This document shows positions 23,511-43,469 of a stretch of DNA of 64,000 nucleotides, piece by piece. The position numbers were made by a program, and so were the translations under genes. The DNA comes from an uncultured Gammaproteobacteria bacterium. Its GTDB lineage: Bacteria; Patescibacteriota; Microgenomatia; CAZXEC01. Position 1 is the first letter of the stretch; every line of letters starts with the position of its first letter. Below the pieces are notes generated by a model. The model did not search any database, had not been told where the DNA came from, and saw nothing but the letters and a program-made list of their open reading frames with translations. The stretch lies in contig CAZXEC010000001.1 of the NCBI GenBank assembly GCA_964639595.1, positions 254,498-318,497 on the forward strand, in the 5' to 3' direction.

Positions 23511-23558
23511 CAGGGTGTGAAGCTTTACCTAAATTAGGTATAATTAACCTCAAGTAAG

Positions 23559-25681: not shown

Positions 25682-26487
25682 TGGAAATATCTATTATCAT
25701 TGTTTCTTACAATACCAAAGATAAGTTATCTAGCCTGTTGCGATCACTTACTGATGCGGGAATTGGACTGGACTGGCAGGTAATTGTGGTTGATAATGCC
25801 TCAACCGATGGCACAGTTAAGATGCTGGAGCAGCAATTTCCTGACGTCATCCTGGTCAAAAATAACCGGAATTTAGGCTTTGCCAGGGCTTGTAATATTG
25901 GTTTTGCCAAATCAAATGGCCGGTTCTTGTTTTTTTTGAATCCCGACACAGAAATAAAACCGCAGGTGGTGGAAAAATTAGTCGAATTTGCCAGTTATCA
26001 TGCTGATTGTGGCATAGTGGCGCCTCAACTATTAAATGGTGATGGCTCGCCTCAAGCTTCGGTCAGAAACTTGCCCACCCTGTGGCGGGCCATCCGTCAG
26101 TATTGGCTGGGCCAGTTGGGAGTTTATGATTTTTACCTGCCAGGCGGAGCTGCAGTATCGGTAGAGAGTGTGACCGGAGCGGCCATGCTCATTCACCGAA
26201 ATATTTTTGAAAAAGTTGGCGGTTTTGATGAGAGATATTTTATGTATTTTGAAGATTTAGAGTTATGCCGCCAAGTTATCTCCCTGGGCTATAAAATATA
26301 TTACTTACCGCAACTGACCATTGTTCACCACAAAGGCGCCAGCGCCCAAACCATAGGTGGTAAAGCATTCCAGATGCTTAAGATAAGTAGTAAAATATAT
26401 CATGGATGGGCGCAAGCGTTCTTGATTGATGTGGTGATTAGAAGTGGGCGAATATGCAAGAAATTATTAGGTCGAAATACAAAATAG
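25678..26487 (+). CDS. GT2 glycosyltransferase
   Basis: ISIIIVSYNTKDKL, VVDNASTDGT and YFEDLELC motifs. Confidence 0.85.
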   Translation: MMEISIIIVSYNTKDKLSSLLRSLTDAGIGLDWQVIVVDNASTDGTVKMLEQQFPDVILVKNNRNLGFARACNIGFAKSNGRFLFFLNPDTEIKPQVVEKLVEFASYHADCGIVAPQLLNGDGSPQASVRNLPTLWRAIRQYWLGQLGVYDFYLPGGAAVSVESVTGAAMLIHRNIFEKVGGFDERYFMYFEDLELCRQVISLGYKIYYLPQLTIVHHKGASAQTIGGKAFQMLKISSKIYHGWAQAFLIDVVIRSGRICKKLLGRNTK

Positions 26488-31462: not shown

Positions 31463-31535
31463 ATAAATTAAGAATTGATAATTTACTCCACTTCGTCCGT
31501 CAGCCAACGGACTACGATGGGCACAGCAATTTACA

Positions 31536-33263
31536 ATGACGAGCAAAATATTATTTGCAACTATTTTATTGATTGCCTTTGTGTTGCGGTTCTGGCAACT
31601 GGGCCAGTCTCCCAGCCTGTATTGGGACGAGCCGGCCATCGGCTACAATGCCTATTCCATTCTGACCACCGGCCGTGACGAGTATGGCAATGTCTTCCCC
31701 TTCACCTTCCGCTCATTTGATGACTATAAAGCTCCCGGCTATATTTATCTGACAGTCCCGTCTGTTGCTATTTTTGGCCTCACAGAATTTGCCGTTCGCT
31801 TCCCCTCGGCCCTGCTGGGAGTGTTAACCGTGGCGCTAGTTTATTTCTTAGTGGGAGAGCTACTTAAATTAGGTCGCAGTCAGCAGTCCAGCAGTCAGCG
31901 GTTTGCTGTTTGCTGTCAGCTGTTATCTATGGCCTCGCTGGCCATCTCCCCCTGGCACATCCATGTTTCTCGGATTGGCTTTGAAGCCAACGCCGCCGTA
32001 TTTTTCCTGACTCTGGGCATATTTCTATTCGTCAAGTTTATTGACGAATCCAAGAGTCAAGCCCCGCGAAGTCCGTCGGCTGACGGACGAAGTAGGGCTA
32101 CGTCTACCTTCTTGCTTATCGCTTTCCCCTTGCCCCTTATCGCTTCTTTATATACTTATCACAGCTCCAGATTATTAATACCGCTTCTTCTTACGGTATA
32201 TTTGATATTTTTCTGGAAAAAGTTCAATAAACAACTTCTGGTTAAGTTGGCGCTGGTGGTGTTAGTTTTATTAATCCCGCTTGCTCTTGTGATGCTGCGT
32301 CCGGAAACTCAAAACAGGGTGATTTGGTCCAGTCTTTTTTCCTACCAGCGGCCACCTGAAGAAATTAACCGGTTGGCTCAAATTGATCAGGCCCAAAGGC
32401 AAGATTTATCTTTTGGCCTATTGCATTCGGAGCCGGAATATTTTACCAAGGGTTTCCTGTCGCGCATGACCAATCATCTCTCGCCGATATTTTTATTCCT
32501 GAAAGGCGATGATAATCAGCGGTTGGGATTTGGCACCGTCGGTATTTATTATCTGTTTGAACTGCCGTTTTTTATACTGGGTGTCGTCTTTTTAACAAAG
32601 CATAAAACCACGGCTGTAATTTTATTACCTTGGTTTTTATTGGGAATTTTGCCGGCGGCACTGACCCGCGACCAAACTAACCTGCTCCGATCCCTCAACG
32701 CTTATGTGGCGGGAAATATCATCATCGGTTTGGGCGCGGCTTCGTTTTACCAGTACCTAACAGCCGGAAAAGTATTGGTCAGATCAGTAATTTTTATTCC
32801 CATGGCCGGTCTGATCTTGTGGAATGTGGGGTTTTTCCTGGATAATTATTTCGTCCATTACGCCAACAGAACCGCCCCATATTGGCAATATGGCTATAAG
32901 CAGGTAGTATCCAAGGTTTCAGCTTTGCAAGATAAATATGACAAGATTTACGTCTCCACCGACTACGGCCAGCCTTATATTTATTTCTTGTTTTACCAAA
33001 AATATCCGCCGGCCAAATATCAGCCGCAAGCCAGGCTTGTCAAAGACCCCCACAGCGTTGATGTGGGTGAAGGTGCCGGATATGATAAATTTGAGTTTCG
33101 CAAACTTTACTGGCCGGCTGATCGGGGTTTGAGAAAGAGTTTGTTTGTCGGCTCGCCGGAACAGCTGCCGGAAAAAGACATTGACCCCAAAGAGGCCCGC
33201 ATCATTGACCGTGTGTATTTCCCCAACGGCCCGGAGGCCTTTAGAATAGTGGAGACGTTATAA
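31536..33263 (+). CDS. PMT/ArnT-like membrane glycosyltransferase, paralog 4
   Basis: DEPAIGYNAYSIL and ISPWHIH motifs. It contains two low-complexity inserts (31877-31920 and 32065-32095). Confidence 0.7.
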   Translation: MTSKILFATILLIAFVLRFWQLGQSPSLYWDEPAIGYNAYSILTTGRDEYGNVFPFTFRSFDDYKAPGYIYLTVPSVAIFGLTEFAVRFPSALLGVLTVALVYFLVGELLKLGRSQQSSSQRFAVCCQLLSMASLAISPWHIHVSRIGFEANAAVFFLTLGIFLFVKFIDESKSQAPRSPSADGRSRATSTFLLIAFPLPLIASLYTYHSSRLLIPLLLTVYLIFFWKKFNKQLLVKLALVVLVLLIPLALVMLRPETQNRVIWSSLFSYQRPPEEINRLAQIDQAQRQDLSFGLLHSEPEYFTKGFLSRMTNHLSPIFLFLKGDDNQRLGFGTVGIYYLFELPFFILGVVFLTKHKTTAVILLPWFLLGILPAALTRDQTNLLRSLNAYVAGNIIIGLGAASFYQYLTAGKVLVRSVIFIPMAGLILWNVGFFLDNYFVHYANRTAPYWQYGYKQVVSKVSALQDKYDKIYVSTDYGQPYIYFLFYQKYPPAKYQPQARLVKDPHSVDVGEGAGYDKFEFRKLYWPADRGLRKSLFVGSPEQLPEKDIDPKEARIIDRVYFPNGPEAFRIVETL

Positions 33264-33265
33264 TT

Positions 33266-33733
33266 ATGGGAGATATCCGTGAACTAGTTAAACAAGTTTT
33301 AGAGAAAGGCTATCTGATCAGTCTGGCCACAGTTGATGATGATGGCGTATGGGTGGCAGATGTGATTTATGTTTTTGATGAGACCTTTGATATTTATTGG
33401 ATGTCGCAAGAAAACGCTCGGCATTCTCAAGCTCTCCTAAAAAACAGTCAGGTAGCAGGAGCAATTACTGTAACCACCAAACCACAAGAAGACGATATCG
33501 GATTGCAGCTGGAAGGCAGAGCGGAGAAGATCGAGGGTGATATCTGGGAAATTGCCATCAAACATCGACTCAAAAGAGGCAAGCCAGCTCCCATCAAAGA
33601 GGGCGAGGCTCTTGATGCAGGAGAATCATGGTATAAATTAAAGCCTGCCAGAATTGAATTGATCTATCAGTCTAAATTTGGCTTTGAGAGAAAAAGTTTG
33701 AGTTTAGTTACCTATCACACCCTTAGGGTGTGA
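33266..33733 (+). CDS. Pyridoxamine-5'-phosphate-oxidase-like FMN-binding protein (general stress protein 26 family)
   Basis: Small split-barrel fold pattern (LISLATVDDDGVWVADVIYVFDE ... YWMS). It lies 3 nt downstream of paralog 4. Confidence 0.65.
   Translation: MGDIRELVKQVLEKGYLISLATVDDDGVWVADVIYVFDETFDIYWMSQENARHSQALLKNSQVAGAITVTTKPQEDDIGLQLEGRAEKIEGDIWEIAIKHRLKRGKPAPIKEGEALDAGESWYKLKPARIELIYQSKFGFERKSLSLVTYHTLRV
33716..33732 (+). terminator. Palindromic hairpin CACACCC-TTA-GGGTGTG overlapping the stop codon, followed by a second TTAGGGTGTG copy at 33738-33747
   Basis: Read directly. A related palindrome occurs at 38765-38779 on the other side of the CRISPR-Cas cassette. Confidence 0.35.
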
Positions 33734-33752
33734 TAGATTAGGGTGTGCAAGT

Positions 33753-34244
33753 GTGCTCAATTCATTCGAACCTGGGGAAATCCGGCTTAAAAAATTATTA
33801 AATACAATGCCTGTCGAACATGGTCTATCTCTGCCGGAAACAGAACTGGATAAACTGCGTCATCTAAAAGAGCGGTTAGTGGGAGAAGACCGCTTAAAAT
33901 TCAACATTGGCAGGCTATGCTTATCTTATGTCCGATTCCGAGTCTATGTGGAAGCAATCACCAGTGCCGAGGCATCTTTGCCAGAACGGGCGTGCCAATC
34001 CATAGAATTTGTGGATGGGATACTCAAGCATTGCCTTGCCAATACTTTCACTTCTATACTGCGGACGGAAAATCCAGACCTGATAGGTTACGCCACACTA
34101 TTATTGGAGCAACAGCGAGGTTTTCTTAACGGCGATCTTGACTATTTGACTTTTCCCATTCCATTCAGTCATGGCATGGACATTCAGGGTCTGCTGTGGA
34201 GTAATCCTGAAGCGGAAACCCGCAAACCGGAGAGCTGGCGGTGA
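33753..34244 (+). CDS. Hypothetical protein (163 aa, GTG start) immediately upstream of the CRISPR array
   Basis: ORF only, with no recognisable motif. It ends 18 nt before repeat 1. Confidence 0.35.
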   Translation: MLNSFEPGEIRLKKLLNTMPVEHGLSLPETELDKLRHLKERLVGEDRLKFNIGRLCLSYVRFRVYVEAITSAEASLPERACQSIEFVDGILKHCLANTFTSILRTENPDLIGYATLLLEQQRGFLNGDLDYLTFPIPFSHGMDIQGLLWSNPEAETRKPESWR

Positions 34245-34262
34245 AAGAGAAACTAATAGACA

Positions 34263-34811
34263 GTTGCATTCCTTAATTCTTCTTAAGAGGTTCTGCAGGC
34301 TGTTTATACAAATCGAGTTCTATCTCCATACTTAGTTGCATTCCTTAATTCTTCTTAAGAGGTTCTGCAGGGCGTCAAAACGAGCTGGTTAAGTTGAAGT
34401 CTTAACGGTTGCATTCCTTAATTCTTCTTAAGAGGTTCTGCAGGCAAAAAGGGACGCATAACTGCATCCCGTAATTTAAGTTGCATTCCTTAATTCTTCT
34501 TAAGAGGTTCTGCAGGTTCTGATATATAATAGTTAAAAGAAGCCCGAAGTTGAAGTTGCATTCCTTAATTCTTCTTAAGAGGTTCTGCAGGTTCTAATAA
34601 TAACTGCTTAAACCCTCGTTTACTTCCAAAGTTGCATTCCTTAATTCTTCTTAAGAGGTTCTGCAGGTTAAATGCAGCTATGAAATATCATGGAGAATTT
34701 GGTTGCATTCCTTAATTCTTCTTAAGAGGTTCTGCAGGGGTGATGGCACCGCCAAAACAGGTGTTGAAGATATAGTTGCATTCCTTAATTCTTCTTAAGA
34801 GGTTCTGCAGG
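34263..34811 (-). CRISPR. CRISPR array of 8 identical 37-bp repeats (plus strand GTTGCATTCCTTAATTCTTCTTAAGAGGTTCTGCAGG) and 7 spacers of 34-39 bp
   Basis: Repeats start at 34263, 34335, 34408, 34480, 34555, 34631, 34702 and 34775. An internal CTTAA/TTAAG stem is present. The minus-strand transcription call is inferred from the cas gene orientation and from the repeat reverse complement ending in AAGGAATGCAAC (see findings). Confidence 0.95.
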
Positions 34812-35095
34812 AGCTCTGAATTTGAGGCTAAGAATTGACCTTTTAACCCCCAAATTTTTAGTGAACCCCTTTTCTGCATAAAATATGTCAAGGTTCGCAG
34901 ATTCTCTGTAAAACCCAAAGAGAAGAACTAAAAATTGTAGTGTTCAGTCCACTTTAGTCCTAAGGGGCTAAAGTTTTCCTATTGCTTTTGAACGGTAACG
35001 AGGACCTAAAGCAAGCCCACTCTACTGCTGTGCAACACAGCCCTTGCATAATTCTCAAGCATATAGCTGAGAACTCGTCGTTAAAAACGATAATA
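34812..35095. ncRNA. Non-coding region between the array and the effector gene; candidate leader and tracrRNA locus
   Basis: 284 bp without a plausible ORF. It contains repeat-like fragments: TCAAGGTTCGCAGATTCTC (34888-34906) and CTTGCATAATTCTCAAGC (35043-35060, resembling the repeat 5' half with two short deletions), plus a GCTGTG-CAA-CACAGC hairpin (35026-35040). Confidence 0.3.
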
Positions 35096-36853
35096 TCAGA
35101 TTTTTATCTCTTTGTAAAGCGCATTTGCGATATTGATTGCGGCATTTAGATCGGCATTCATATTATGGCCACATTCTCGATTAACACATCTAAAAAAACC
35201 TTTGTTTCTGTCACCAGTCTTATGACACATTGAACATATTTGCGATGTATACTCTGGATTTATAAATCTTATCGGTATTCCGGCTTTCAAGGCTTTGTAT
35301 TCAATGAGTTTTTGTAGTTTACCATAAGAAAAATTTGATAGCATAAATCTTATTTTTCTTTCTTGTAATGCAGTTCCTTTCTTGATTCTTTTTTCTCCTT
35401 GGGTAATTTTTAGCTTTTCCATTGCAATCACGATTGGTTTTAATTCTTTGGCCTGATTAACAATTTGTCTTGAAAAGTTATGGAGCATATAATCTGAAAT
35501 TCTAGCTACTTTTTTCCCAAACTGCGCCCGACGTTTATTCACACCTTTTGTCCCCGTAAACTTTTTCCTAATGAGCTGGTACTTTGTCTTTTGGGCCATT
35601 AATCCGTGGCCAGGATAAAATTTGATGAAGCAAGGTTTACCATTGGGTTTATCGACCACAGCCGTAACAGCCGTCTGATTAACGCCTCTATCTATACCCA
35701 TAATTTTAGTCTTGCTATCTATTTTCGGTTCCTCAAATTCTTGAACTAGAGGATAGCTGAGGTAAAAATTGCCCCGTTTTCTTAGCAATAGAGGATATTT
35801 AAGCTCTCCCTCTTTAATTTTTCTTATGATATCCAGAAACCAACTCTTATTTTTTTCTGATTTTATAGTATTAACGATCAGAGTAAATTTCTCTTGTTTG
35901 CCATCAATACTCAATTTCACAAATTGCTCGTTAATATCTTTTACAGATGTGTTTTGTAAATCGACAATATTCCCCTTGAAAAGTACTTTTGTTTCTTTGA
36001 GTCTTTTTTGAAGCTTTTCAATGGTTTTATTTAACGCTTCTATGGTCCCTCGTATTGTAGATTCCGTTTTACCTCTTGATGGATTCTCCTTAAAAAGAAT
36101 ATGTTTATAGCGATCAACTCTTTGGTTTTGCTGACGAGGTAATGTAAATCTACTTGTAGTGTTTTTTTGTTTTATTTCATCTTTTAATCGATTTAAAACA
36201 TCTAACACTCCTGCGTTATTTTTGTAACGTTCTAACCATTTTTTGAGAGTAGTTGATGCGATCTTGTCATTATCTAAAACTTCTTGCCATTCAATTGCTC
36301 GACGTTGCGTTATAAAAATAGTTGAGTACACATTATTTAATTGTTTTTTGTATGAATTCAGCGTATCGTTTGCGCGTTTAAAAGCTAACGCATACTCTGT
36401 GCCGGGCAATTTGACAGCATCTCTCACATCTCCATATTGGCTACGTTTTCTATTGCCTGTTGCATATAAAATCTTTCTAATTGAGAATTCTTTATTCCAA
36501 CATTTGCCACAAACTAATTCTATGCCGTCCTTCTTTTTGCGGATTATTAATGATTTCTGCCCACAAGTCTTACATATTTTATTACGGTCGTTCCTGTTCT
36601 TACCTTCTGGTTTGTGCCCTTTGCAGGATACATAACTTTTTAAGCAATAAGAGCACTTTCCATTCAATCCTTGGCTGCCACCTGTGTCCTTTTTAATAAA
36701 CTCATAATTGTTTCGTTGACCCTCTTCTACTATTTGAATTTTTTTCGCAAAAAAGTTGACAGCCTTACTAAATCTACTAAAGTATGACTCTAAAAAATCT
36801 TCCTGTGTTAAAGTAGGAACAAACTTAAAACTATATGAGGTAGTAAGTTTCAT
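35096..36853 (-). CDS. Compact type V effector, TnpB-like Cas12f/Cas14-like nuclease (585 aa)
   Basis: RuvC-I (IMGIDRGVNQTAV), RuvC-II (IVIAMEKLK) and RuvC-III (NADLNAAINIANALY) motifs. A CxxC...CxxC zinc finger (YTSQICSMCHK ... CVNRECGH) sits between RuvC-II and RuvC-III. There is an extra N-terminal Cys-rich zinc ribbon (CSYC ... CKTCGQ ... CGKCW). It is located between cas4 and the array. Confidence 0.85.
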   Translation of the reverse strand: MKLTTSYSFKFVPTLTQEDFLESYFSRFSKAVNFFAKKIQIVEEGQRNNYEFIKKDTGGSQGLNGKCSYCLKSYVSCKGHKPEGKNRNDRNKICKTCGQKSLIIRKKKDGIELVCGKCWNKEFSIRKILYATGNRKRSQYGDVRDAVKLPGTEYALAFKRANDTLNSYKKQLNNVYSTIFITQRRAIEWQEVLDNDKIASTTLKKWLERYKNNAGVLDVLNRLKDEIKQKNTTSRFTLPRQQNQRVDRYKHILFKENPSRGKTESTIRGTIEALNKTIEKLQKRLKETKVLFKGNIVDLQNTSVKDINEQFVKLSIDGKQEKFTLIVNTIKSEKNKSWFLDIIRKIKEGELKYPLLLRKRGNFYLSYPLVQEFEEPKIDSKTKIMGIDRGVNQTAVTAVVDKPNGKPCFIKFYPGHGLMAQKTKYQLIRKKFTGTKGVNKRRAQFGKKVARISDYMLHNFSRQIVNQAKELKPIVIAMEKLKITQGEKRIKKGTALQERKIRFMLSNFSYGKLQKLIEYKALKAGIPIRFINPEYTSQICSMCHKTGDRNKGFFRCVNRECGHNMNADLNAAINIANALYKEIKI

Positions 36854-36855
36854 CG

Positions 36856-37452
36856 TTAGTTAATATTCTTATAACAATTATCAATTGCTTTTCTCTTATT
36901 CCTTGTCCCCTTTGGTAATCTTTCTGATTGTATTATACTCTCAATCTCGTTAAAAATCTTTAATAATTCATCTTTTAGTGCTTTTGTAATCCTTACCCTT
37001 ATAAAGTCCCCTGATTTTAGAAACTTAACAAAACCAAACGGCACTTTATATCCTAACCTCTCTTCTATTAATAAAGCCTCCATGATAACCTGAAATTTTT
37101 GTGACAGATACAAAAATTTAGGTTTTGAACTATATTTTACTTGAATAGGATAAGCTTCATGTAGTTTTTTGTTAATTGCAACACAATCTACCTTTGTAGA
37201 GATTTTATACTTACTAGATGTCAAGTATACGTCATATATTTTAGCTAAAAACGGCAACTCTTTGATTACCTTATTTCTTCTTGACTTTCTAGAGAATTCG
37301 ACATATTTTTGCCTACCCTCGATTTCCTTAATTGTTGTAGCTTGGGGAATTTTGAGGACGTGAATGTAATATATAATTCTAGGATCATAAAGGTAATTCA
37401 TTAAGTCGGTGGCTGTTAAATAATTTTGCATCGGTTTAAATAAATATAACAT
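36856..37452 (-). CDS. cas4: Cas4-like PD-(D/E)xK nuclease-fold protein lacking the Fe-S cysteine cluster
   Basis: The N-terminus YLTATDLMNYLYDPRIIYY matches the Cas4 hTGTDhxxYxYCPR signature with Cys replaced by Asp. There is a central VDCVAI ... PIQVKY motif and a QKFQVIMEALLIEE motif (QhxxY-like). Only one C-terminal Cys is present instead of the usual three. It overlaps cas2 by 17 nt. Confidence 0.6.
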   Translation of the reverse strand: MLYLFKPMQNYLTATDLMNYLYDPRIIYYIHVLKIPQATTIKEIEGRQKYVEFSRKSRRNKVIKELPFLAKIYDVYLTSSKYKISTKVDCVAINKKLHEAYPIQVKYSSKPKFLYLSQKFQVIMEALLIEERLGYKVPFGFVKFLKSGDFIRVRITKALKDELLKIFNEIESIIQSERLPKGTRNKRKAIDNCYKNIN

Positions 37453-37720
37453 CTCTATTTTTTATTAAAAACTCATTGGCCGGCCCGAATGCAATCCTCT
37501 TTGAAAACTCCTCCTCACTTGATGGGAAGATGAGAACCTTGTCATTTTTTGATTTCATTATCTTTTTAATCTCTAAACTTAGCATTTCTGCCTTATTTCT
37601 AGTCAAATTTCCTGAAAAGGCACTTTTTTGTATCCGTTTTAACCCGTAATCCTTACAGAGATTGGATACTTTACTCCGAATATTATTTTTGGAAATATCG
37701 TAGATAACCCAATAGACCAT
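37436..37720 (-). CDS. cas2: Cas2 (94 aa)
   Basis: MVYWVIYDIS ... N-terminus with the catalytic Asp, typical length, and position between cas1 and cas4. Confidence 0.85.
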   Translation of the reverse strand: MVYWVIYDISKNNIRSKVSNLCKDYGLKRIQKSAFSGNLTRNKAEMLSLEIKKIMKSKNDKVLIFPSSEEEFSKRIAFGPANEFLIKNRDVIFI

Positions 37721-37724
37721 AGTC

Positions 37725-38714
37725 CTACTTATAAATATAAGGTGAAAAATCTCTTTTATTACCTAATAGATATGCAGAAATTTCCCTAGTCTGTGCAAGT
37801 ATGATATCTCTCAAAATTAATTTCTTACCTTTGTAAGTAAGTTTGGTATTTAGTCTGTTGATTACAGCTTGAATTAGTTTTCTTTTACCTTTTTGTGATA
37901 GTGTGAGATCACCGGTTTTATCAAAATCCTTACCATTAATCTGTTTCCTATTAAACAATGTGACTATCGCTCTGTCCGAAATAGCTACTCTAAATAACTC
38001 TGTGACGTCTAAGACCAGTGACGGTTTACCGTATCTATCTGTATGATAGAAGCCCAAGTATGGGTCAAGTCCAGCTATAATGCAGGCTCTCTCAACTTCA
38101 GAATAGAGCATGCCATATGCATAATTTAGGCAGACATTAAACATGTCTTCACCGTTTTTATTTCTTTTGGTAAATCCTGTTATAAGCCCCAGGCCCCTGA
38201 AGTATTTTGCTGCAGTTGCCCCCTCCACTCCTAAAAGTGTGCTTCTTAGTTTATCAATAGGATTACTAGTAATGAGCTTGCTTTTTGGGAATTTTGTTTT
38301 GCTTAACTGATTTAATTGTGTATTAGTTTTTCTGTCTTTTGACAGAGATTTCAAATAATTAATCTGACTTCTAATTTTGCCTTCAACGAATTTAACAATT
38401 AGATGCTTCCCCTTTTTTGATAAATATGCCTCAAGTTGTTTTCTACGAGTTAAGGTCGTTCCACCCATATATGGACTATACGTTCTGGCGAAGGGTTTCC
38501 CTTTCCAATCTAGATAAACAATATCAATATGCTTTTCAATGGCTAACTTTACAGCTTCTGTGGAGATACTGGCAGGGGCGGTAAATAACACTTGTCTGAT
38601 TGTATCAGCTGAATATTCACTTTTTTTACCTTTATTATTTACTATCAGCCTATTACCAGACTTAGTTAGGTAAGTTCCAACTTCTTCTATTGCAAGAACA
38701 GAGTTATTAATCAT
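37725..38714 (-). CDS. cas1: Cas1 integrase (329 aa)
   Basis: Typical Cas1 layout with a conserved acidic/His cluster (NYAYGMLYSEVERA ... GFYHTDRYGKPSLVLDVTELFR). It is the first gene of the minus-strand cas1-cas2-cas4-cas12 operon. Confidence 0.9.
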   Translation of the reverse strand: MINNSVLAIEEVGTYLTKSGNRLIVNNKGKKSEYSADTIRQVLFTAPASISTEAVKLAIEKHIDIVYLDWKGKPFARTYSPYMGGTTLTRRKQLEAYLSKKGKHLIVKFVEGKIRSQINYLKSLSKDRKTNTQLNQLSKTKFPKSKLITSNPIDKLRSTLLGVEGATAAKYFRGLGLITGFTKRNKNGEDMFNVCLNYAYGMLYSEVERACIIAGLDPYLGFYHTDRYGKPSLVLDVTELFRVAISDRAIVTLFNRKQINGKDFDKTGDLTLSQKGKRKLIQAVINRLNTKLTYKGKKLILRDIILAQTREISAYLLGNKRDFSPYIYK

Positions 38715-38722
38715 AGGTAGAT

Positions 38723-38751
38723 ATTATAGGACTAAGTGAGTAATATTTCAA
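38723..38751 (-). promoter_or_regulatory. Candidate sigma70 promoter for the cas operon (minus strand TTGAAA-17 nt-TATAAT); the -10 element ends 8 nt before the cas1 ATG, implying a leaderless or near-leaderless transcript
   Basis: The reverse complement of 38715-38751 reads TTGAAATATTACTCACTTAGTCCTATAATATCTACCT followed by ATG. Confidence 0.4.
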
Positions 38752-38764
38752 GCCTATACATGGT

Positions 38765-38779
38765 ACACCCTTGGGGTGT
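38765..38779. repeat. Palindrome ACACCC-TTG-GGGTGT, related to the 33716-33732 palindrome
   Basis: Read directly. It lies in the divergent intergenic region between cas1 and paralog 5. Confidence 0.3.
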
Positions 38780-38849
38780 GAAATTTGTGCAAAAGTTTAA
38801 GTTGGCAAAGCCGGGCAGTTTTAGCGAGAATTTGCTAGAATCTTAAGTA

Positions 38850-40556
38850 ATGGATAAAAAGGGGCTGGTAAACTGGCTGTTTGTGGCTGTGGTGGCACTG
38901 GCTGTGGTCTTGCGGTTGTATAACCTGACCCAATATCCGCCGGGGTTTACGGCTGATGAGGCGGCCATTGGCTATAATGCCTATTCGCTGCTGCAGACCG
39001 GCCGTGATGAATACGGCACGCCCTGGCCTCTGGTGTTCCGCTCCTTTGATGACTATAAACCCCCGTTATATTTCTATTTAGTGCTGCCGTTTATGGCCGT
39101 GTTGGGGCCAACCGAGCTGGCAGTGCGGCTGCCGTCGGCCTTGTTGGGGATTGGAACAGTTGTTTTGGTATATTTTCTGGCAAAGAGACTTGCTTACAGC
39201 CGACAGCAGATAGCCGACAGCTATATGCCACTGGCAGCCAGTTTCCTGCTGGCAATCAACCCCTGGCATCTGCACTATTCACGCGGCGGCTGGGAAGCCA
39301 ACGCCGGCACCTTCTTTTTGACCCTTGGCATATTTCTATTCGTCAAGTTTCTTGCAGATTCCCAATTAGCCACGCAAGGCGTCCCCTTGCGAAGCTATAG
39401 TAGCAGGGGGCCGTTATTGTTACTGATTGCTTCTGTCTTGTCTCTGATTGCCGCTTTCTACACTTATCACAGCATCAGGGTGGTGGCGCCGGTGCTGTTT
39501 GCCCTCTATGCAATACTTTTTTGGCGACAGCTCTGGCCGGCAAAAAAGGCGGTCATTTGGGCAGTGATGGCAGGAGGAGCGTTGCTTATTCCCCTGGCTC
39601 TGCAGTTTGTGTCAGGCAGTGGGGCAGCCCGCTTTGCCGGAGTGGGCATCTTTGCCGATAGCGGACCCTTTTGGCAGGTTAATCAGGCCCGGGGGGAACA
39701 TGCCAACCTAACAGGTATTGATGCCCGACTGTTCCATAATAAAGTAGCCGCCTACACCTTAAGTTTTGCCGGGCATTACCTGGATCATTTCACTGGCCAG
39801 TTCCTGTTTTTTGGCGGTGATGCCATTGGCCGCAATAACGTGCCGGAGATGGGCCAGCTGTATGTCTGGGAAATATTGACTTTAATAATTGGCTTGTGGC
39901 TGGCGGCCAGACAAGGTGGGCTACCAGCTAAAATAGTTTTGCCCTGGCTGCTTATTGCCCCGCTGGCAGCCTCACTGACCTTCCAGACGCCCCATGCTCT
40001 GCGGGCTGCCAACATGGCCGTGCCCCTGGCAATAATCTCCGGCTATGGCCTGTCTGTCCTCTTGGCCTGGATTTGGCAAATTCGCCGGGCAGCTGCGCGC
40101 TATTTGTTACTGCTGCTTACTGCCAGCTGTCTGCTGTTGGCTTTTGTTAAGTATCTGCACCAGTATTATGTCCATATTTCCCAGGAGCGGGCCCTGGAAT
40201 GGCAGTATGGTTTTGACCAATTGGTGCCGTTTGTGCTTGCCAAGCAAGATCAGTATAATAAGGTGGTCATAACCGATCGGTACGACCAGCCCTACATTCT
40301 CATGTTATTCTATTCAAAGTACGATCCCGCCCAATACCAACCCCAGGCCCAACTCTCCAGCCGCGACCGGTTTGGTTTTGGCACGGTGCGGGCTTTTGAC
40401 AAATATGAATTTAGACACATCACTCCCGATGAAGTAGAAAAGGCCACAAATACCCTGTTTGTCTTATCCGGTGATGAAGTTTATGAAGGAGTTAGTGTGC
40501 AAAAGACCATTGCCTTCCCCAATGGGAAGGTGGCTTTTGCCATGGTGGAAAAATGA
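38850..40556 (+). CDS. PMT/ArnT-like membrane glycosyltransferase, paralog 5
   Basis: DEAAIGYNAYSLL and INPWHLH motifs. It shares an identical 24-nt stretch (GGCATATTTCTATTCGTCAAGTTT) with paralog 4 (32018 vs 39320). Confidence 0.7.
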   Translation: MDKKGLVNWLFVAVVALAVVLRLYNLTQYPPGFTADEAAIGYNAYSLLQTGRDEYGTPWPLVFRSFDDYKPPLYFYLVLPFMAVLGPTELAVRLPSALLGIGTVVLVYFLAKRLAYSRQQIADSYMPLAASFLLAINPWHLHYSRGGWEANAGTFFLTLGIFLFVKFLADSQLATQGVPLRSYSSRGPLLLLIASVLSLIAAFYTYHSIRVVAPVLFALYAILFWRQLWPAKKAVIWAVMAGGALLIPLALQFVSGSGAARFAGVGIFADSGPFWQVNQARGEHANLTGIDARLFHNKVAAYTLSFAGHYLDHFTGQFLFFGGDAIGRNNVPEMGQLYVWEILTLIIGLWLAARQGGLPAKIVLPWLLIAPLAASLTFQTPHALRAANMAVPLAIISGYGLSVLLAWIWQIRRAAARYLLLLLTASCLLLAFVKYLHQYYVHISQERALEWQYGFDQLVPFVLAKQDQYNKVVITDRYDQPYILMLFYSKYDPAQYQPQAQLSSRDRFGFGTVRAFDKYEFRHITPDEVEKATNTLFVLSGDEVYEGVSVQKTIAFPNGKVAFAMVEK

Positions 40557-41353: not shown

Positions 41354-42338
41354 GGTCAGAGGAATTGGCACCTATACTAAAAATTTAGCCCAAGCCCTAG
41401 TCAAAATTGCTGGTCTGGAACTGGTGACTTTTCAGGGAGGGAAAATTCCCGATTGTGATATAGTGCATTATCCTTACTTTGATTTATTTTTCCAAAGCTT
41501 ACCAATTTTCAAAAATAAACCGACCGTGGTCACAATCCATGATGTGGTGCCCTTGCGCTTTCCCCAACATTTTCCATCAGGCATCAGAGGACAACTTAAA
41601 TTTTTGCTGCAAAAGTTATCCTTGCAGTCAGCGCGGGCTGTTGTGACCGATTCTGACGCGTCCAAGAGTGATATTGTTAAATTTTTGAAAGTTGCCCCGC
41701 AGAAAATTTTTTCCATCCATCTGGCGCCTTCACCAATTTTTAGCAGAATTTCCGATCAGTCACAACTTGACGCGGCCAGACAAAAATATCAATTGCCGGC
41801 TAGTTATATTTTATACGTGGGTGATGTGTCATATAATAAAAATTTACCACGACTGCTGGAGGCAATTGCCGACCTTGATGTTAACCTGGTGATGGTGGGG
41901 CAGGCTGTGGCGGATGAGACAGTGGCGGAAACTAAAGAGCTGATGACAAAAATTAACCAGCTGGGTCTTAAAGAGAGAGTTTGGCGCTTGGGTTTTGTGG
42001 CAGATGAAGATTTGGTCGCGATTTATAATTTAGCCGGCTGTCTGGTACTACCATCTTTGGCAGAAGGGTTTGGACTGCCGGTTTTGGAGGCGATGGCAAC
42101 AGGTTGTCCGGTGGTGACATCTAATATTTCTTCTATGGCAGAGATTGCGGGGGCGGCGGCAATTTTAGTGGATCCAAACGATACAAAAAATATTAGCTGG
42201 GGAATTAGGGAAGTATTAGATAGGGATAAGGGAGAAGCGTTAAGGGAAAAGGGAGCAGAGCAAGTCAAAAAATTTTCCTGGGACAAAACTGCTCAAGCAA
42301 CTGTCAAAGTCTACCGCCAGGTTTTAGGCCATGAATAA
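41205..42338 (+). CDS. GT4 (group 1) glycosyltransferase
   Basis: EGFGLPVLEAMATGCPVV motif. The probable true start is the ATG at 41310 (MKVALDTSPL), which is preceded by GGGAGG. Confidence 0.8.
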   Translation: MSDTKVLPTVLPVWCSHFFPDCISQLHILSIGRQNMKVALDTSPLTSGHRVRGIGTYTKNLAQALVKIAGLELVTFQGGKIPDCDIVHYPYFDLFFQSLPIFKNKPTVVTIHDVVPLRFPQHFPSGIRGQLKFLLQKLSLQSARAVVTDSDASKSDIVKFLKVAPQKIFSIHLAPSPIFSRISDQSQLDAARQKYQLPASYILYVGDVSYNKNLPRLLEAIADLDVNLVMVGQAVADETVAETKELMTKINQLGLKERVWRLGFVADEDLVAIYNLAGCLVLPSLAEGFGLPVLEAMATGCPVVTSNISSMAEIAGAAAILVDPNDTKNISWGIREVLDRDKGEALREKGAEQVKKFSWDKTAQATVKVYRQVLGHE

Positions 42339-43446
42339 TTTTATCATCAAATCATTTTTTGCCTGGAGAATTGCCCTATTTATTTTAGGAATAGCGGCTT
42401 TTTACTTAATTAAATTTTCCTGGAGCTTTCCTTATGTGGAGGCCAGGCTAATCTCCACCGGTTATCCGGAATGGTTGTGGAATTGGGGCAACTTTGACGG
42501 AGTCCACTATCTGTCAATTGTTCAAGAAGGCTATCGGCAATTTCAACAGGCTTTTTTCCCGCTGTATCCGGGACTGATTTGGCTGGCTGGCAAGATGCTG
42601 GCAGAAAATTATTTCCTATCCGGCTTAATTGTGTCTAACGGGGCATATTTGGCGGGACTGTTTATTTTTTATAAACTACTCAAGCTTGATTTTTCCGATG
42701 ACCTGGCCAAAAAAACAGTCATTCTCCTGTTGTGTCTGCCGTTTGCCTTTTTCTTCGGCGCCATCTACACCGAAGGGTTATTTTTCGCCGAAATTGTAGC
42801 CTGCTTTTTTCTGGCTCGTAACAACCACTGGTGGTGGGCAGGACTGGTGGGGGGACTAGCGGTATCTACCCGCTTTGTGGGAATTTTTCTGCTACCGGCT
42901 TTGTTTATTTTTTGGTACATAAGAAGCGAGAGGCAACTATCAGAACTGTTACCATTATTATTAATTCCCGCCGCCTTGGTTTTCTACATGATTTACCTGC
43001 AGATAAATTATGGCGACCCTCTGTATTTTTTGCATGCCCAGACATTTTTTGGAGCCCAGAGGAGCGGTGAGAAAATCATCCTGTTGCCGCAGGTACTGTG
43101 GCGGTATGGCAAAATTTTGACCAGCGTTTCTGTCCAAACCCTAACATTTTGGAATGCTGTTGTCGAACTGGTAGTGACTTTTGCGGTATTGGCCTTGATT
43201 ATCAAATCTATTAAAAAATTACCGGTTTATTATGTATTATTTGCCTTCTTGTGCTGGTTGACCCCCACTTTTACCGGATCATTATCATCGATGACCCGTT
43301 ATGTCCTGCCGATTTTCCCGGTTTGGATGATGCTGGCAATGCTTATTGGCAATAGACAAAAGTTGTTTTATGGCGTTATAGTAGTGTTTGTTATTATGCA
43401 GGCATTTTTCGCCTCTCTATTTTTGAGAGGCTATTTTGTGGGCTAA
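42331..43446 (+). CDS. Polytopic membrane protein, PIG-V/GPI-mannosyltransferase-2-like GT-C enzyme
   Basis: NFDGVHYLSIVQEGY ... AFFPLYPGLIW motif typical of the Mannosyl_trans2-type family. Confidence 0.5.
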   Translation: MNNFIIKSFFAWRIALFILGIAAFYLIKFSWSFPYVEARLISTGYPEWLWNWGNFDGVHYLSIVQEGYRQFQQAFFPLYPGLIWLAGKMLAENYFLSGLIVSNGAYLAGLFIFYKLLKLDFSDDLAKKTVILLLCLPFAFFFGAIYTEGLFFAEIVACFFLARNNHWWWAGLVGGLAVSTRFVGIFLLPALFIFWYIRSERQLSELLPLLLIPAALVFYMIYLQINYGDPLYFLHAQTFFGAQRSGEKIILLPQVLWRYGKILTSVSVQTLTFWNAVVELVVTFAVLALIIKSIKKLPVYYVLFAFLCWLTPTFTGSLSSMTRYVLPIFPVWMMLAMLIGNRQKLFYGVIVVFVIMQAFFASLFLRGYFVG

Positions 43447-43469
43447 TTCTCAAGTTTGAGAATTAGCCC
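43440..43469 (+). terminator. Perfect 14-bp-stem hairpin GGGCTAATTCTCAA-GT-TTGAGAATTAGCCC overlapping the stop codon, followed by a second palindrome CGGCGC-TGATG-GCGCCG (43474-43490) and a third GGGCTAATT copy just before the next ATG
   Basis: Read directly. There is no U-tract after the hairpin, so it may be an attenuator or protein-binding element rather than a classic intrinsic terminator. Confidence 0.4.

What the first reader, a model, noticed from the sequence alone, without database searches (positions are those of the whole stretch)
33716..38850. CRISPR-Cas cassette lies between two near-identical tandem paralogs and is flanked by related palindromes
Seen in sequence: the cassette (hypothetical ORF, array, cas genes) interrupts a run of five PMT-like paralogs exactly between paralog 4 (ends 33263, with a co-transcribed PNPOx gene ending 33733) and paralog 5 (starts 38850). 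Paralogs 4 and 5 share identical stretches of 24 nt or more (32018 vs 39320). The cassette is bounded by CACACCC-TTA-GGGTGTG (33716-33732, with a second TTAGGGTGTG copy at 33738) and ACACCC-TTG-GGGTGT (38765-38779).

Inference: the cassette was acquired as a unit, or was moved by recombination between paralogs. The shared palindrome could be a recombination or terminator element marking its borders.
Basis: partly seen in the sequence, partly recalled or inferred. Interest (0 to 1): 0.5.

Follow-up and report, generated by a model that had tools for sequence, protein, structure and literature searches.

The report
CRISPR-Cas12f2 island bordered by REP-like hairpins
A small, intact, foreign-looking CRISPR-Cas (Cas12f2/Cas14b-type) locus sits inside a sugar-transferase gene cluster of a Candidatus Daviesbacteria genome, and the matching palindromes at its edges most likely belong to a family of repeated extragenic hairpins rather than being scars of recombination between the neighbouring (only 38% identical) paralogs.

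Summary
The cassette and both palindromes are real. The flanking paralogs are not near-identical: 38.5% amino-acid identity, with one 24-nt identical run that encodes a conserved motif.

The cassette is a complete type V-F2 locus on the minus strand: cas1-cas2-cas4-cas12f2, a tracrRNA candidate, and eight 37-nt repeats. Independent assemblies confirm it.

Its composition looks foreign. GC is 0.35 against 0.46-0.49 in the flanks, and it is the strongest tetranucleotide outlier in the 64 kb window. The left GC change-point is at about 34250, the array end. It is not at the left palindrome (33712-33736), which is separated from the low-GC block by a host-like orphan ORF.

The right palindrome (38765-38781) lies between divergent promoters, so it cannot terminate any gene.

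The shared 17-nt core, ACACCCTTRGGGTGTGA, is also the hairpin of a dispersed repeat in Candidatus Shapirobacteria contigs. There, inverted copies flank an IS200-like Y1 transposase (a REP/RAYT arrangement), and other copies sit at strain-level structural breakpoints. The window holds a third, partial copy at 23512-23524.

Best reading: a horizontally acquired cassette joined at REP-type hairpins.

No empty site was found, and the rest of this genome could not be searched. This is a new member of known kinds, of modest interest.

The parts
23512..23524 (+). Partial third copy of the REP-type element (AGGGTGTGAAGCT: right arm plus non-palindromic tail), 2 nt after the stop of ORF 22101-23510.
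   Evidence: 13/13 identity to positions 23-35 of the Shapirobacteria REP consensus. Ungapped score is 13, against a maximum of 12 in 20 shuffles. Borderline significance.
31536..33263 (+). GT39/PMT-like glycosyltransferase, paralog 4.
   Evidence: Pfam PMT/PMT_2. 38.5% amino-acid identity to paralog 5. 80% amino-acid identity to the orthologue in L008.
33266..33733 (+). PNPOx-like (YhbP/UPF0306-type) gene. Its last ~7 codons (VTYHTLRV) read into the left palindrome.
   Evidence: Pfam PF01243. Homologues end about 7 residues earlier, so the tail is not conserved.
33712..33736 (.). Left palindrome: 25-nt perfect palindrome CTATCACACCC-TTA-GGGTGTGATAG (11-bp stem). REP-type hairpin.
   Evidence: RNA fold -18 to -21 kcal/mol, z = -2.9. 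The 17-nt core is identical to the Shapirobacteria REP.
33738..33747 (+). Extra copy of loop plus right arm (TTAGGGTGTG), 15 nt after the first.
   Evidence: Possibly the remnant of a tandem REP, like the tandem pair seen in L084. This is inference.
33753..34244 (+). ORF163, an orphan ORF (gene callers also start it at ATG 33807, giving 145 aa). GC is host-like.
   Evidence: No Pfam, NCBIfam or PADLOC hit. No homologue other than itself among 5.8 billion proteins. GC 0.463 with coding-like GC1>GC3>GC2. AlphaFold2 single-sequence pLDDT 47, all-helical.
34263..34811 (-). CRISPR array: 8 identical 37-nt repeats and 7 spacers of 34-39 nt. Transcribed on the minus strand.
   Evidence: The minus-strand repeat CCTGCAGAACC...AAGGAATGCAAC shares 27/37 positions, including both ends, with the repeat part of the Un1Cas12f1 sgRNA printed in bioRxiv 10.1101/2022.10.20.513037.
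34813..35095 (-). Leader / tracrRNA region, with the anti-repeat candidate at 34938..34905 preceded by a 10-bp hairpin (34974..34951).
   Evidence: RNA duplex with the repeat: -25.4 kcal/mol, 14 + 7 contiguous pairs. Promoter-like site TTTACA..TG..TATTAT at 35118..35090 on the minus strand. No Rfam match.
35096..36853 (-). cas12f2 (Cas14b-like) effector, 585 aa. It has N-terminal CxxC clusters, RuvC motifs (GIDRGVN, AMEKLK, NADLNAA) and a TNB zinc ribbon.
   Evidence: NCBIfam CRISPR_Cas12f2 E 1e-108 (364 bits; curated cut-off 450). PADLOC Cas14b full length, E 2e-68. Pfam PF07282. PDB relatives are Cas12f/TnpB. Only 19 clusters at E<=1e-30 among 1.84 billion representatives, the nearest 55% identical.
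36856..37452 (-). cas4.
   Evidence: TIGR00372 E 7.5e-22; PF01930.
37436..37720 (-). cas2.
   Evidence: PF09827 E 1.7e-20; TIGR01573.
37725..38714 (-). cas1.
   Evidence: PF01867 E 7e-71; TIGR00287 E 4e-80.
38723..38751 (-). Best sigma-70-like promoter match of the region (TTGAAA-17-TATAAT, 11/12), ending 9 nt before the cas1 ATG.
   Evidence: This is a consensus match only.
38765..38781 (.). Right palindrome ACACCC-TTG-GGGTGTGA (6-7 bp stem), 14 nt upstream of the cas1 -35 hexamer and 69 nt upstream of the P5 ATG.
   Evidence: 18/19 identity to positions 14-32 of the Shapirobacteria REP. The fold is not better than shuffles in context.
38850..40556 (+). GT39/PMT-like glycosyltransferase, paralog 5 (GC 0.52).
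   Evidence: NCBI names it as from Candidatus Daviesbacteria.

Best explanation
WHAT IS THERE
- The segment holds an intact type V-F2 CRISPR-Cas locus on the minus strand, in this order: a promoter, cas1, cas2, cas4, cas12f2 (Cas14b-like, 585 aa), a tracrRNA candidate, and eight 37-nt repeats.
- It is a compositionally foreign block of about 4.5 kb (about 34250 to 38800) inside a large co-directional glycosylation gene cluster of a Candidatus Daviesbacteria (CPR) genome.
- It was most likely acquired horizontally. It was not moved by recombination between the flanking GT39 paralogs, which are old duplicates.

THE PALINDROMES
- The two matching palindromes are copies of a REP-type extragenic hairpin family. 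This is the kind of hairpin that IS200-like Y1 (HUH) transposases, the RAYTs, recognise.
- The left copy sits at the end of the PNPOx gene and is native to that site. The right copy sits at the junction between the cas1 promoter region and the fifth paralog.

SHOWN
- The identity of the locus and its foreign composition.
- The significance of the palindromes.
- Identity of the core to a RAYT-flanking dispersed repeat in another Microgenomates lineage.
- The presence of that repeat exactly at strain-level structural breakpoints there.

INFERRED
- That this genome has such a repeat family and a cognate transposase.
- That the hairpins served as the joining points for the acquired DNA, or alternatively colonised the new junctions afterwards.
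- As RNA, the strong left hairpin may also end or stabilise the P4-PNPOx transcript.
For: LOCUS IDENTITY
- Protein family matches.
- Repeats and anti-repeat.
- Repeat ends match the Un1Cas12f1 guide.

ASSEMBLY
- Independent contigs from five sequencing runs and one NCBI MAG are 100% identical across both junctions and across the cassette.

FOREIGN COMPOSITION
- GC is 0.345 inside against 0.456 and 0.493 outside, with change-points at 34250 and 38860.
- Tetranucleotide distance is 0.40-0.46 against a window mean of 0.23 +/- 0.06.
- The operon runs on the opposite strand to its neighbours.

SYNTENY BREAK
- Homology to the closest relative ends at 33707. That relative has a related hairpin (ATCACACACC-A-GGTGTGTGAT) after PNPOx, then an unrelated convergent gene.

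REP IDENTITY
- 84 stretches in metagenome contigs carry the 17-mer. They include a family, GGTGTGAACGTATTACACCCTTAGGGTGTGAAGCTA, in at least 8 different intergenic contexts.
- Inverted copies 747 nt apart flank a 220-aa Y1_Tnp protein (PF01797, E 2e-9; NHFH and YIHLNP motifs).
- That contig type is Candidatus Shapirobacteria.
- Other RAYT homologues in Microgenomates loci are each flanked by their own palindromes.
- Two of those REP loci are exact strain-level breakpoints: L078/L084 and L100/L104.
- The window has a third, partial copy that includes the non-palindromic tail, at 23512-23524.
- Among 894 kb of other Microgenomates loci, a CACACC..GGTGTG hairpin occurs only in the close relative L008. 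This fits a lineage-specific repeat.
Against: - Only two full copies lie in 64 kb, and both are next to the cassette. A classical REP family would usually be denser.
- No Y1 transposase gene is in the window. The rest of the genome could not be read.
- The link to the Shapirobacteria repeat was found by searching a very large collection for the exact 17-mer. Roughly a hundred chance hits are expected there (my estimate), so some selection bias applies.
- The arrangement of the extra half-site differs: downstream of the hairpin in the window, upstream in the Shapirobacteria element.
- The classical GTAG/CGTC tag of REPs is absent.
- The third copy is only borderline significant.
- The 16/17 direct repeat exactly bracketing ORF163 plus the cassette is also what a target duplication or att pair would look like.
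- No empty site was found, so the insertion itself is inferred from composition alone.
Confidence: 0.55

Rival explanations
1. The two palindromes are a target-site duplication or an attL/attR pair, made when a 5-kb element (ORF163 + array + cas genes, about 33734-38764) integrated as one unit into a single pre-existing hairpin downstream of PNPOx.
For: - A 16/17 direct repeat sits at both ends, and no other full copy is in the window.
- Homology with the nearest relative stops 5 nt before the left copy.
- An extra half-site right after the left copy suggests a junction.
- A related hairpin in L008 could be the unoccupied target.
Against: - The segment encodes no integrase, transposase or recombinase.
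- There are no terminal inverted repeats, and similarity does not extend beyond the core.
- The GC change-point is at 34250, not 33733 (a cost of 14.7 log-likelihood units), so ORF163 does not look like part of the foreign block.
- The same core is a dispersed, transposase-associated repeat elsewhere.
- A partial third copy lies 10 kb away.
Confidence: 0.15
2. The palindromes are operator sites for a DNA-binding regulator (possibly ORF163). It would co-control ORF163 at the left end and the divergent cas1 / P5 promoters at the right end.
For: - The right copy sits between two divergent promoter-like sites, 14 nt upstream of the cas1 -35 hexamer.
- The left copy plus an extra half-site lies 20-70 nt upstream of the possible ORF163 starts.
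- Perfect dyad symmetry is typical of operators (established knowledge).
Against: - No DNA-binding domain is detectable in ORF163 or in any cassette gene.
- The ORF163 model has low confidence.
- The left copy lies inside the end of the PNPOx ORF, with no room for a promoter before the GTG start.
- The same core behaves as a mobile repeat in other genomes.
Confidence: 0.1
3. The palindromes are ordinary native gene-end hairpins (terminators or mRNA stabilisers) that resemble each other by common descent in this cluster. On this reading they have nothing to do with how the cassette arrived.
For: - The left copy is a strong hairpin right at the end of the conserved part of PNPOx.
- A related hairpin is at the same place in L008.
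- Another long perfect palindrome overlaps a stop codon at 43440-43469.
Against: - No gene ends at the right copy.
- Neither copy is followed by a T-run, and neither is listed by the terminator scan.
- The other gene-end palindrome in the window has an unrelated sequence.
- Two copies bracketing the only foreign block in 64 kb is unlikely if placement is random. My rough estimate is below 1%, given about 50 intergenic regions.
Confidence: 0.1
4. The cassette was placed or moved by homologous recombination between the flanking GT39 paralogs.
For: - P4 and P5 are each other's closest paralogs and share one 24-nt identical run.
Against: - They share 38.5% amino-acid identity, and 65.7% nucleotide identity over only 428 nt.
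- The identical run encodes a conserved peptide.
- The cassette borders are not inside the paralogs.
Confidence: 0.02

Closest known systems
Type V-F2 CRISPR-Cas (Cas12f2 = Cas14b), as in Micrarchaeota archaeon Mi1/Mi2Cas12f2 and Aureabacteria AuCas12f2 (PMC7229846)
   Same: - A miniature effector with a split RuvC domain and a TNB zinc ribbon. Its best profile matches are Cas12f2/Cas14b.
- An adjacent cas1-cas2-cas4 adaptation module.
- A tracrRNA region between the effector gene and the array.
- 37-nt repeats whose ends match the Un1Cas12f1 guide.
   Different: - The host is a CPR bacterium (Candidatus Daviesbacteria). The examples named in PMC7229846 are two Micrarchaeota archaea (DPANN, by my own knowledge) and one Aureabacteria bacterium.
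- The score is below NCBIfam's curated cut-off (364 against 450 bits).
- The nearest cluster representative is only 55% identical.
REP / REPIN elements and their RAYT (TnpA_REP) Y1 transposases; REPtrons (PMC3116915, PMC3733652, PMC6006769)
   Same: - Short GC-rich palindromes in extragenic positions, close to gene 3' ends or between genes.
- The identical 17-nt core flanks a Y1_Tnp gene in inverted orientation and is dispersed in Candidatus Shapirobacteria contigs.
   Different: - Copy number in this genome is unknown: two full copies and one partial copy in 64 kb.
- No RAYT gene is in the window.
- There is no GTAG or CGTC tag.
- The extra half-site lies on the other side of the hairpin compared with the Shapirobacteria unit.
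IS200/IS605-family elements (TnpA Y1 transposase, TnpB cargo, subterminal LE/RE hairpins; PMC6006769)
   Same: - A segment bounded by two similar hairpins, with no terminal inverted repeats.
- The cargo includes a TnpB-derived nuclease, Cas12f2 (NF040570 guided_TnpB, E 1e-38).
   Different: - There is no tnpA in the segment.
- It is about 5 kb long with an adaptation module and an array.
- It is single-copy as far as can be seen.
- The left hairpin appears ancestral to the site.
- No cleavage or guide tetranucleotides were identified.
Integrative genomic islands with att direct repeats; casposons
   Same: - A foreign block with a short direct repeat at both borders, next to the 3' end of a conserved gene.
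- It contains a Cas1.
   Different: - No integrase, no family-B polymerase and no terminal inverted repeats.
- Cas1 here is part of a normal cas1-cas2-cas4 module next to an array.

Membership tests
Type V-F2 CRISPR-Cas (Cas12f2/Cas14b) | A single effector of 400-700 aa with a C-terminal split RuvC domain and a TNB zinc ribbon, whose best match is a Cas12f2 profile. | tested here: met
   PF07282 E 2e-20. NCBIfam CRISPR_Cas12f2 E 1e-108 (364 bits, below the 450-bit 'exception' cut-off). PADLOC Cas14b covers residues 5-584, E 2e-68. RuvC and Zn motifs are visible in the translation.
Type V-F2 CRISPR-Cas (Cas12f2/Cas14b) | A CRISPR array next to the effector gene. | tested here: met
   8 identical 37-nt repeats at 34263-34811, 284 nt from the cas12f2 stop.
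Type V-F2 CRISPR-Cas (Cas12f2/Cas14b) | A cas1-cas2-cas4 adaptation module in the locus (the Cas14 subset). | tested here: met
   TIGR00287, TIGR01573 and TIGR00372 all score above their cut-offs.
Type V-F2 CRISPR-Cas (Cas12f2/Cas14b) | A tracrRNA with an anti-repeat encoded between the effector gene and the array. | tested here: inconclusive
   In-silico duplex of -25.4 kcal/mol at 34938..34905 on the cas strand. There are no expression data and no Rfam model.
Type V-F2 CRISPR-Cas (Cas12f2/Cas14b) | RNA-guided, PAM-dependent DNA cleavage. | not testable with these tools
   Four spacer seeds gave no protospacer in viral contigs, so no PAM could be read.
REP / RAYT repeat family | A short (20-40 nt) palindrome able to form a stem-loop. 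| tested here: met
   Left copy: 11-bp stem, -18 kcal/mol, z = -2.9. Right copy: 6-7 bp stem.
REP / RAYT repeat family | Extragenic location, typically close to gene 3' ends. | tested here: met
   The left copy overlaps only the non-conserved last 7 codons of PNPOx. The right copy and the partial third copy are intergenic.
REP / RAYT repeat family | Many copies dispersed in the same genome. | tested here: inconclusive
   Two full copies and one partial copy in the 64 kb available. The rest of the genome could not be fetched.
REP / RAYT repeat family | Copies flank a Y1 (RAYT) transposase gene in inverted orientation. | not testable with these tools
   No Y1_Tnp gene in the window. The feature is met for the same core sequence in Candidatus Shapirobacteria contigs.
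REP / RAYT repeat family | A conserved GTAG or CGTC tetranucleotide at one end (the classical super-families, PMC3733652). | tested here: not met
   Neither tag adjoins either copy, judged by reading the sequence. The Shapirobacteria unit also lacks them.
Integrative element with att sites / transposon with target duplication | A recombinase or transposase encoded within the bounded segment. | tested here: not met
   All six ORFs between the palindromes were scanned with Pfam, NCBIfam and PADLOC. Only cas genes and an orphan ORF were found.
Integrative element with att sites / transposon with target duplication | An empty site with a single copy of the repeat in related genomes. | not testable with these tools
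   - The closest relative contig (L008) ends 340 nt past PNPOx.
- The P5 orthologue contig (L011) has only 109 nt upstream.
- The species-representative genome scan found only relatives at <=42% identity.
- All contigs carrying the exact P4, PNPOx, P5 or Cas12f2 proteins show the occupied state.
IS200/IS605-type element | tnpA (Y1 transposase) inside the element, or several identical copies mobilised in trans. | tested here: not met
   There is no tnpA in the segment. The exact Cas12f2 protein is found only in this one genomic context.
Intrinsic terminator | A GC-rich hairpin followed by a T-run at the end of a transcription unit. | tested here: not met
   Neither palindrome is listed by the terminator scan, and no gene ends at the right copy.

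The most novel reading that the evidence does not exclude
The two hairpins are functional ends recognised by a Y1 (IS200/RAYT-type) transposase encoded elsewhere in the genome. On this reading, the whole segment between them is a non-autonomous, single-strand 'peel-and-paste' mobile unit. Its cargo would be the array, the tracrRNA, the TnpB-derived Cas12f2 and the adaptation genes.

That would be a CRISPR-Cas locus still travelling in the manner of the IS200/IS605 elements from which Cas12 nucleases descend. The evidence does not exclude this:
- the hairpins are similar, with no inverted terminal repeats and no recombinase inside;
- homology to the relative breaks 5 nt before the left hairpin;
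- the same hairpin marks exact strain-level breakpoints in Shapirobacteria.
Probability: 0.07. Interest if true: 0.8.

Novelty: new member of a known kind. Interest (0 to 1): 0.35.

Why it matters
- **A rare family in a new host.** The Cas12f2/Cas14b family is small: 19 clusters at E<=1e-30 among 1.84 billion representatives. The characterised members named in PMC7229846 come from two Micrarchaeota archaea and one Aureabacteria bacterium. An intact copy with adaptation genes in a CPR bacterium, in AT-rich foreign-looking DNA, adds a compact nuclease variant. It also fits gene flow into a CPR genome; the donor is unknown.
- **REP/RAYT systems in CPR bacteria.** The analysis shows that REP/RAYT-type repeat systems exist in Microgenomates. 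One such hairpin family sits exactly at strain-level structural breakpoints. If the same holds in this genome, these hairpins are practical markers of where small CPR genomes gain and lose DNA.
- **For the scan itself.** The 'near-identical paralogs' premise was wrong. Matching palindromes at island borders should be checked against repeat families before they are read as att sites.

Tried and rejected
1. **Empty site in related genomes.**
   - The species-representative genome scan with P4 returned only relatives at <=42% identity, and not the source genome.
   - PNPOx homologues at <=65% identity lie in unrelated neighbourhoods.
   - The two close-relative contigs (L008, L011) are too short.
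2. **Related cassettes elsewhere.** The Cas12f2 scan of JGI metagenomes found none. The exact protein occurs only in this same context.
3. **Extending the genome beyond the window.** Three look-ups of window-end proteins found no record, probably because the called start codons differ.
4. **ORF163 function.** It has no family and no homologue, and the AlphaFold2 model has pLDDT 47. I did not run a fold search on such a model.
5. **Protospacers and PAM.** Four spacer seeds gave no hit in viral contigs.
6. **Misassembly or chimera.** Rejected.
   - Both junctions and the interior are covered at 100% identity by independent contigs.
   - The breaks inside cas2 end in Nextera adapter sequence, which points to low coverage rather than structural variation.
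7. **Extended homology around the palindromes.** Not significant beyond the 17-nt core.
8. **Casposon.** Rejected: no polymerase B and no inverted terminal repeats.
9. **A general Microgenomates motif.** Rejected: the hairpin is absent from 894 kb of other Microgenomates loci except the close relative L008.
10. **Rfam.** No match in 33000-39500.

Full report
**1. What is in the sequence**

Layout:
- The window is a Candidatus Daviesbacteria (CPR, Microgenomates) genome fragment. NCBI names the P5 protein that way.
- Part of the window equals contig JACQJB010000007.1 of GCA_016198195.1.
- Most of the window from about 17 to 62 kb is a co-directional glycosylation gene cluster.
- Within it lie four tandem GT39/PMT-like genes (26454-33263) and a PNPOx-like gene (33266-33733).
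- Next come an orphan ORF (33753-34244), a CRISPR array (34263-34811) and a 284-nt spacer region.
- Then four minus-strand genes (35096-38714), a 135-nt intergenic region, and the fifth GT39 gene (38850-40556).

The palindromes:
- The left one is a 25-nt perfect palindrome, CTATCACACCC-TTA-GGGTGTGATAG, at 33712-33736. An extra TTAGGGTGTG lies at 33738-33747.
- The right one is ACACCC-TTG-GGGTGTGA at 38765-38781.
- They share 16 of 17 nt.
- The pattern occurs nowhere else in 64 kb, against 0.01 matches expected.
- Similarity does not extend beyond the core.

**2. What is wrong in the observation**

- Paralogs 4 and 5 are not near-identical. They share 38.5% amino-acid identity, and 65.7% nucleotide identity over 428 nt.
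- The 24-nt identical run (32016/39327) encodes the conserved peptide FFLTLGIFLFVKF.
- Recombination between the paralogs is therefore not a credible route.

**3. The cassette**

- The 585-aa protein best matches Cas12f2/Cas14b profiles:
  - NCBIfam NF049972, E 1e-108, 364 bits, below the 450-bit cut-off;
  - PADLOC Cas14b, full length, E 2e-68;
  - Pfam PF07282.
- It has N-terminal CxxC clusters, RuvC motifs and a C-terminal zinc ribbon. Its solved relatives are Cas12f and TnpB.
- Cas12f2 is the current name for Cas14b. The tested examples come from Micrarchaeota and Aureabacteria (PMC7229846).
- The family is small: 19 clusters at E<=1e-30 among 1.84 billion representatives, the nearest 55% identical.
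- cas4, cas2 and cas1 follow upstream on the same strand.
- The array has eight identical 37-nt repeats.
  - Read on the minus strand, the repeat is CCTGCAGAACC...AAGGAATGCAAC.
  - It shares 27 of 37 positions, including both ends, with the repeat part of the Un1Cas12f1 guide.
  - This fixes transcription on the cas strand.
- An anti-repeat candidate lies at 34938..34905 (-25.4 kcal/mol). A promoter-like site at the cas12f2 stop lies upstream of it.
- The best promoter-like match of the region (11/12) ends 9 nt before the cas1 ATG.
- The locus looks complete and functional.
- No protospacers were found.

**4. Is the assembly sound?**

- Independent contigs cover the left flank through the first repeats (L004, L005, L007), at 100% identity.
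- L143, from another project, covers the leader-proximal repeat through cas12f2-cas4-cas2-cas1 and 143 nt into P5.
- L001-L003 cover cas2/cas1 into the right flank.
- Contig breaks inside cas2 end in adapter sequence. That indicates low coverage of AT-rich DNA, not structural variation.

**5. Is it foreign, and where are its borders?**

- cas genes have GC 0.30-0.35. The paralogs have GC 0.46-0.52.
- The block is the only >2 sd tetranucleotide outlier in the window.
- It runs against the prevailing gene direction.
- A two-change-point GC model places the block at 34250-38860, with support 34230-34520 and 38750-38870. Putting the left border at the left palindrome costs 14.7 log-likelihood units.
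- ORF163 (GC 0.463) is host-like in composition. It has no homologue at all and no reliable structure model.
- So the right palindrome coincides with the compositional border. The left one is one ORF away.

**6. Comparison with relatives**

- The closest available relative is contig L008 (P4 80% and PNPOx 83% amino-acid identity; 83.5% DNA identity).
  - It aligns up to window position 33707 and no further.
  - After its own PNPOx stop it has a related hairpin, ATCACACACC-A-GGTGTGTGAT. A convergent, unrelated gene follows.
- PNPOx homologues all end about 7 residues before the window's protein, whose tail is encoded by the palindrome.
- The left hairpin is therefore a feature of the site and not something the cas genes brought in.
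- The contig with the P5 orthologue (62% identity) has only 109 nt upstream and no hairpin there.
- No empty site could be found: the species-representative genome scan gave only distant relatives.
- Every contig carrying the exact P4, PNPOx, P5 or Cas12f2 proteins shows the occupied arrangement.

**7. What the palindrome is**

The 17-mer in metagenome contigs:
- A scan of metagenome contigs for the 17-mer gave 84 stretches. By my estimate, many are chance or single-locus hits.
- One family stands out: GGTGTGAACGTATTACACCCTTAGGGTGTGAAGCTA. It occurs in at least eight different intergenic contexts in contigs of GC about 0.4.

Link to a Y1 transposase:
- In eight loci, two inverted copies 747 nt apart flank a 220-aa protein with a Y1_Tnp domain (PF01797, E 2e-9). 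It carries NHFH and YIHLNP motifs.
- Sources name this protein as an IS200-like transposase of Candidatus Shapirobacteria. Shapirobacteria are another Microgenomates lineage, by my own knowledge.
- This is the REPtron arrangement of REP sequences and RAYT transposases (PMC3733652, PMC6006769).
- Other RAYT homologues in Microgenomates loci are each flanked by their own palindromes.

Structural breakpoints at the repeat:
- L078 and L084 are identical except that a 946-nt gene body is replaced by a second tandem repeat unit.
- L100 and L104 are 98.4% identical up to the last base of the repeat and unrelated after it.

Copies in the window and in relatives:
- The right palindrome matches the repeat at 18/19 positions, and the left one over 21 positions.
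- A third, partial copy (AGGGTGTGAAGCT) matches 13/13 including the non-palindromic tail. It lies 2 nt after a stop codon at 23512-23524. Its score is 13 against a shuffle maximum of 12.
- In 894 kb of other Microgenomates loci, a CACACC..GGTGTG hairpin occurs only in the close relative L008. That is expected for a lineage-specific repeat.

**8. Most likely explanation**

- A horizontally acquired type V-F2 cassette sits at a place marked by REP-type hairpins.
- The left hairpin is native to the PNPOx 3' end, where as RNA it may also end or stabilise the transcript.
- The right hairpin lies at the junction with the P5 promoter region. It cannot be a terminator, because no gene ends there and there is no T-run.
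- Two options remain for the right copy:
  - the hairpins served as joining points, as the Shapirobacteria breakpoints suggest;
  - copies settled at the new junctions afterwards.
- I put about 0.55 on this overall reading.
- The weakest links are the unknown copy number and the unknown presence of a Y1 transposase in this genome. The exact-match search of a huge collection also carries a selection effect.

**9. Rivals**

- An att pair or target duplication from unit insertion (0.15). It fits the 16/17 direct repeat. It conflicts with the GC border, the lack of any recombinase, the third partial copy, and the repeat's behaviour elsewhere.
- Operator sites (0.10). This fits the right copy's position between divergent promoters, but there is no candidate regulator.
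- Unrelated native gene-end hairpins (0.10). This does not explain the right copy.
- Recombination between paralogs (0.02). Refuted.
- The most novel reading not excluded (0.07). The hairpins would be functional Y1-transposase ends, and the whole CRISPR-Cas12f2 segment would move like a non-autonomous IS200/IS605 element.

**10. Verdict**

- Both the CRISPR locus and the hairpins are new members of known kinds.
- Interest is modest, for three reasons:
  - a rare Cas12f2 in a CPR host;
  - evidence for REP/RAYT systems and REP-marked breakpoints in Microgenomates;
  - an untested link between Y1-type hairpins and a TnpB-derived effector.

Noticed in passing
window 43440-43469: A 30-nt near-perfect palindrome, GGGCTAATTCTCAAGTTTGAGAATTAGCCC (14-bp arms), overlaps the stop of ORF 42331-43446. 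It is the largest hairpin in the window, and its sequence is unrelated to the cassette palindromes.
   Followed up: no
window 23512-23524: AGGGTGTGAAGCT lies 2 nt after the stop of ORF 22101-23510. It is identical to the right arm plus tail of the Shapirobacteria REP unit. It may be a remnant copy of the same repeat family.
   Followed up: partly
L078 6918-7863 vs L084 (metagenome contigs, Candidatus Shapirobacteria type): The two contigs are near-identical except at this point. A 946-nt gene body present in L078 is replaced in L084 by a second tandem 47-nt REP unit, leaving only the first 15 nt of the gene.
   Followed up: partly
L100 vs L104 (metagenome contigs): The two contigs are 98.4% identical for 2.6 kb up to the last base of the REP unit (...GGGTGTGAAGCTA) and unrelated beyond it. 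This is an exact synteny breakpoint at the repeat.
   Followed up: partly
L061 772-1555; also L129, L014, L037 and L061 10681-11462: IS200-like Y1 transposase (RAYT-type) genes in Microgenomates contigs are each flanked by their own family of inverted palindromes. REPtron-like units therefore seem common in this CPR group.
   Followed up: partly
L067, L069, L085, L090, L111, L115, L130 (JAEEG* metagenome assemblies): A second multi-copy element carries the same 17-nt core: gacccgacGGTGTGAcaagtgctttACACCCTTAGGGTGTGAGGTGTAGCCGCAAGGGCTACC. It occurs twice in one contig, and no Y1 gene was seen nearby.
   Followed up: no
L062, L075, L087, L089, L119, L120, L124, L126, L132, L134, L135, L138 (low-GC contigs, several from TARA samples): The same hairpin is conserved at one orthologous locus of a GC 0.3 organism, between conserved flanks. 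This shows the 17-mer also exists as a single-locus hairpin unrelated to repeats.
   Followed up: no
window 33712-33733: The PNPOx ORF reads through into the palindrome. It gains a 7-residue tail (VTYHTLRV) that is absent from all 10 aligned homologues.
   Followed up: yes
window 37505-37640: The public MAG contig (GCA_016198195.1) and two Logan contigs start inside cas2. One Logan contig start and another contig's far end carry Nextera adapter sequence, so these breaks reflect low coverage of AT-rich DNA.
   Followed up: yes
window 32027-32049: A perfect 9-bp-stem hairpin, ATTCGTCAAGTTTATTGACGAAT, lies inside the coding sequence of paralog 4. It overlaps the 24-nt run shared with paralog 5. 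Paralog 5 lacks the second arm.
   Followed up: no
window 38850-40556: Paralog 5 has a distinctly higher GC (0.52; GC3 0.585) than the other four paralogs (0.46) and than the window as a whole (0.42).
   Followed up: no
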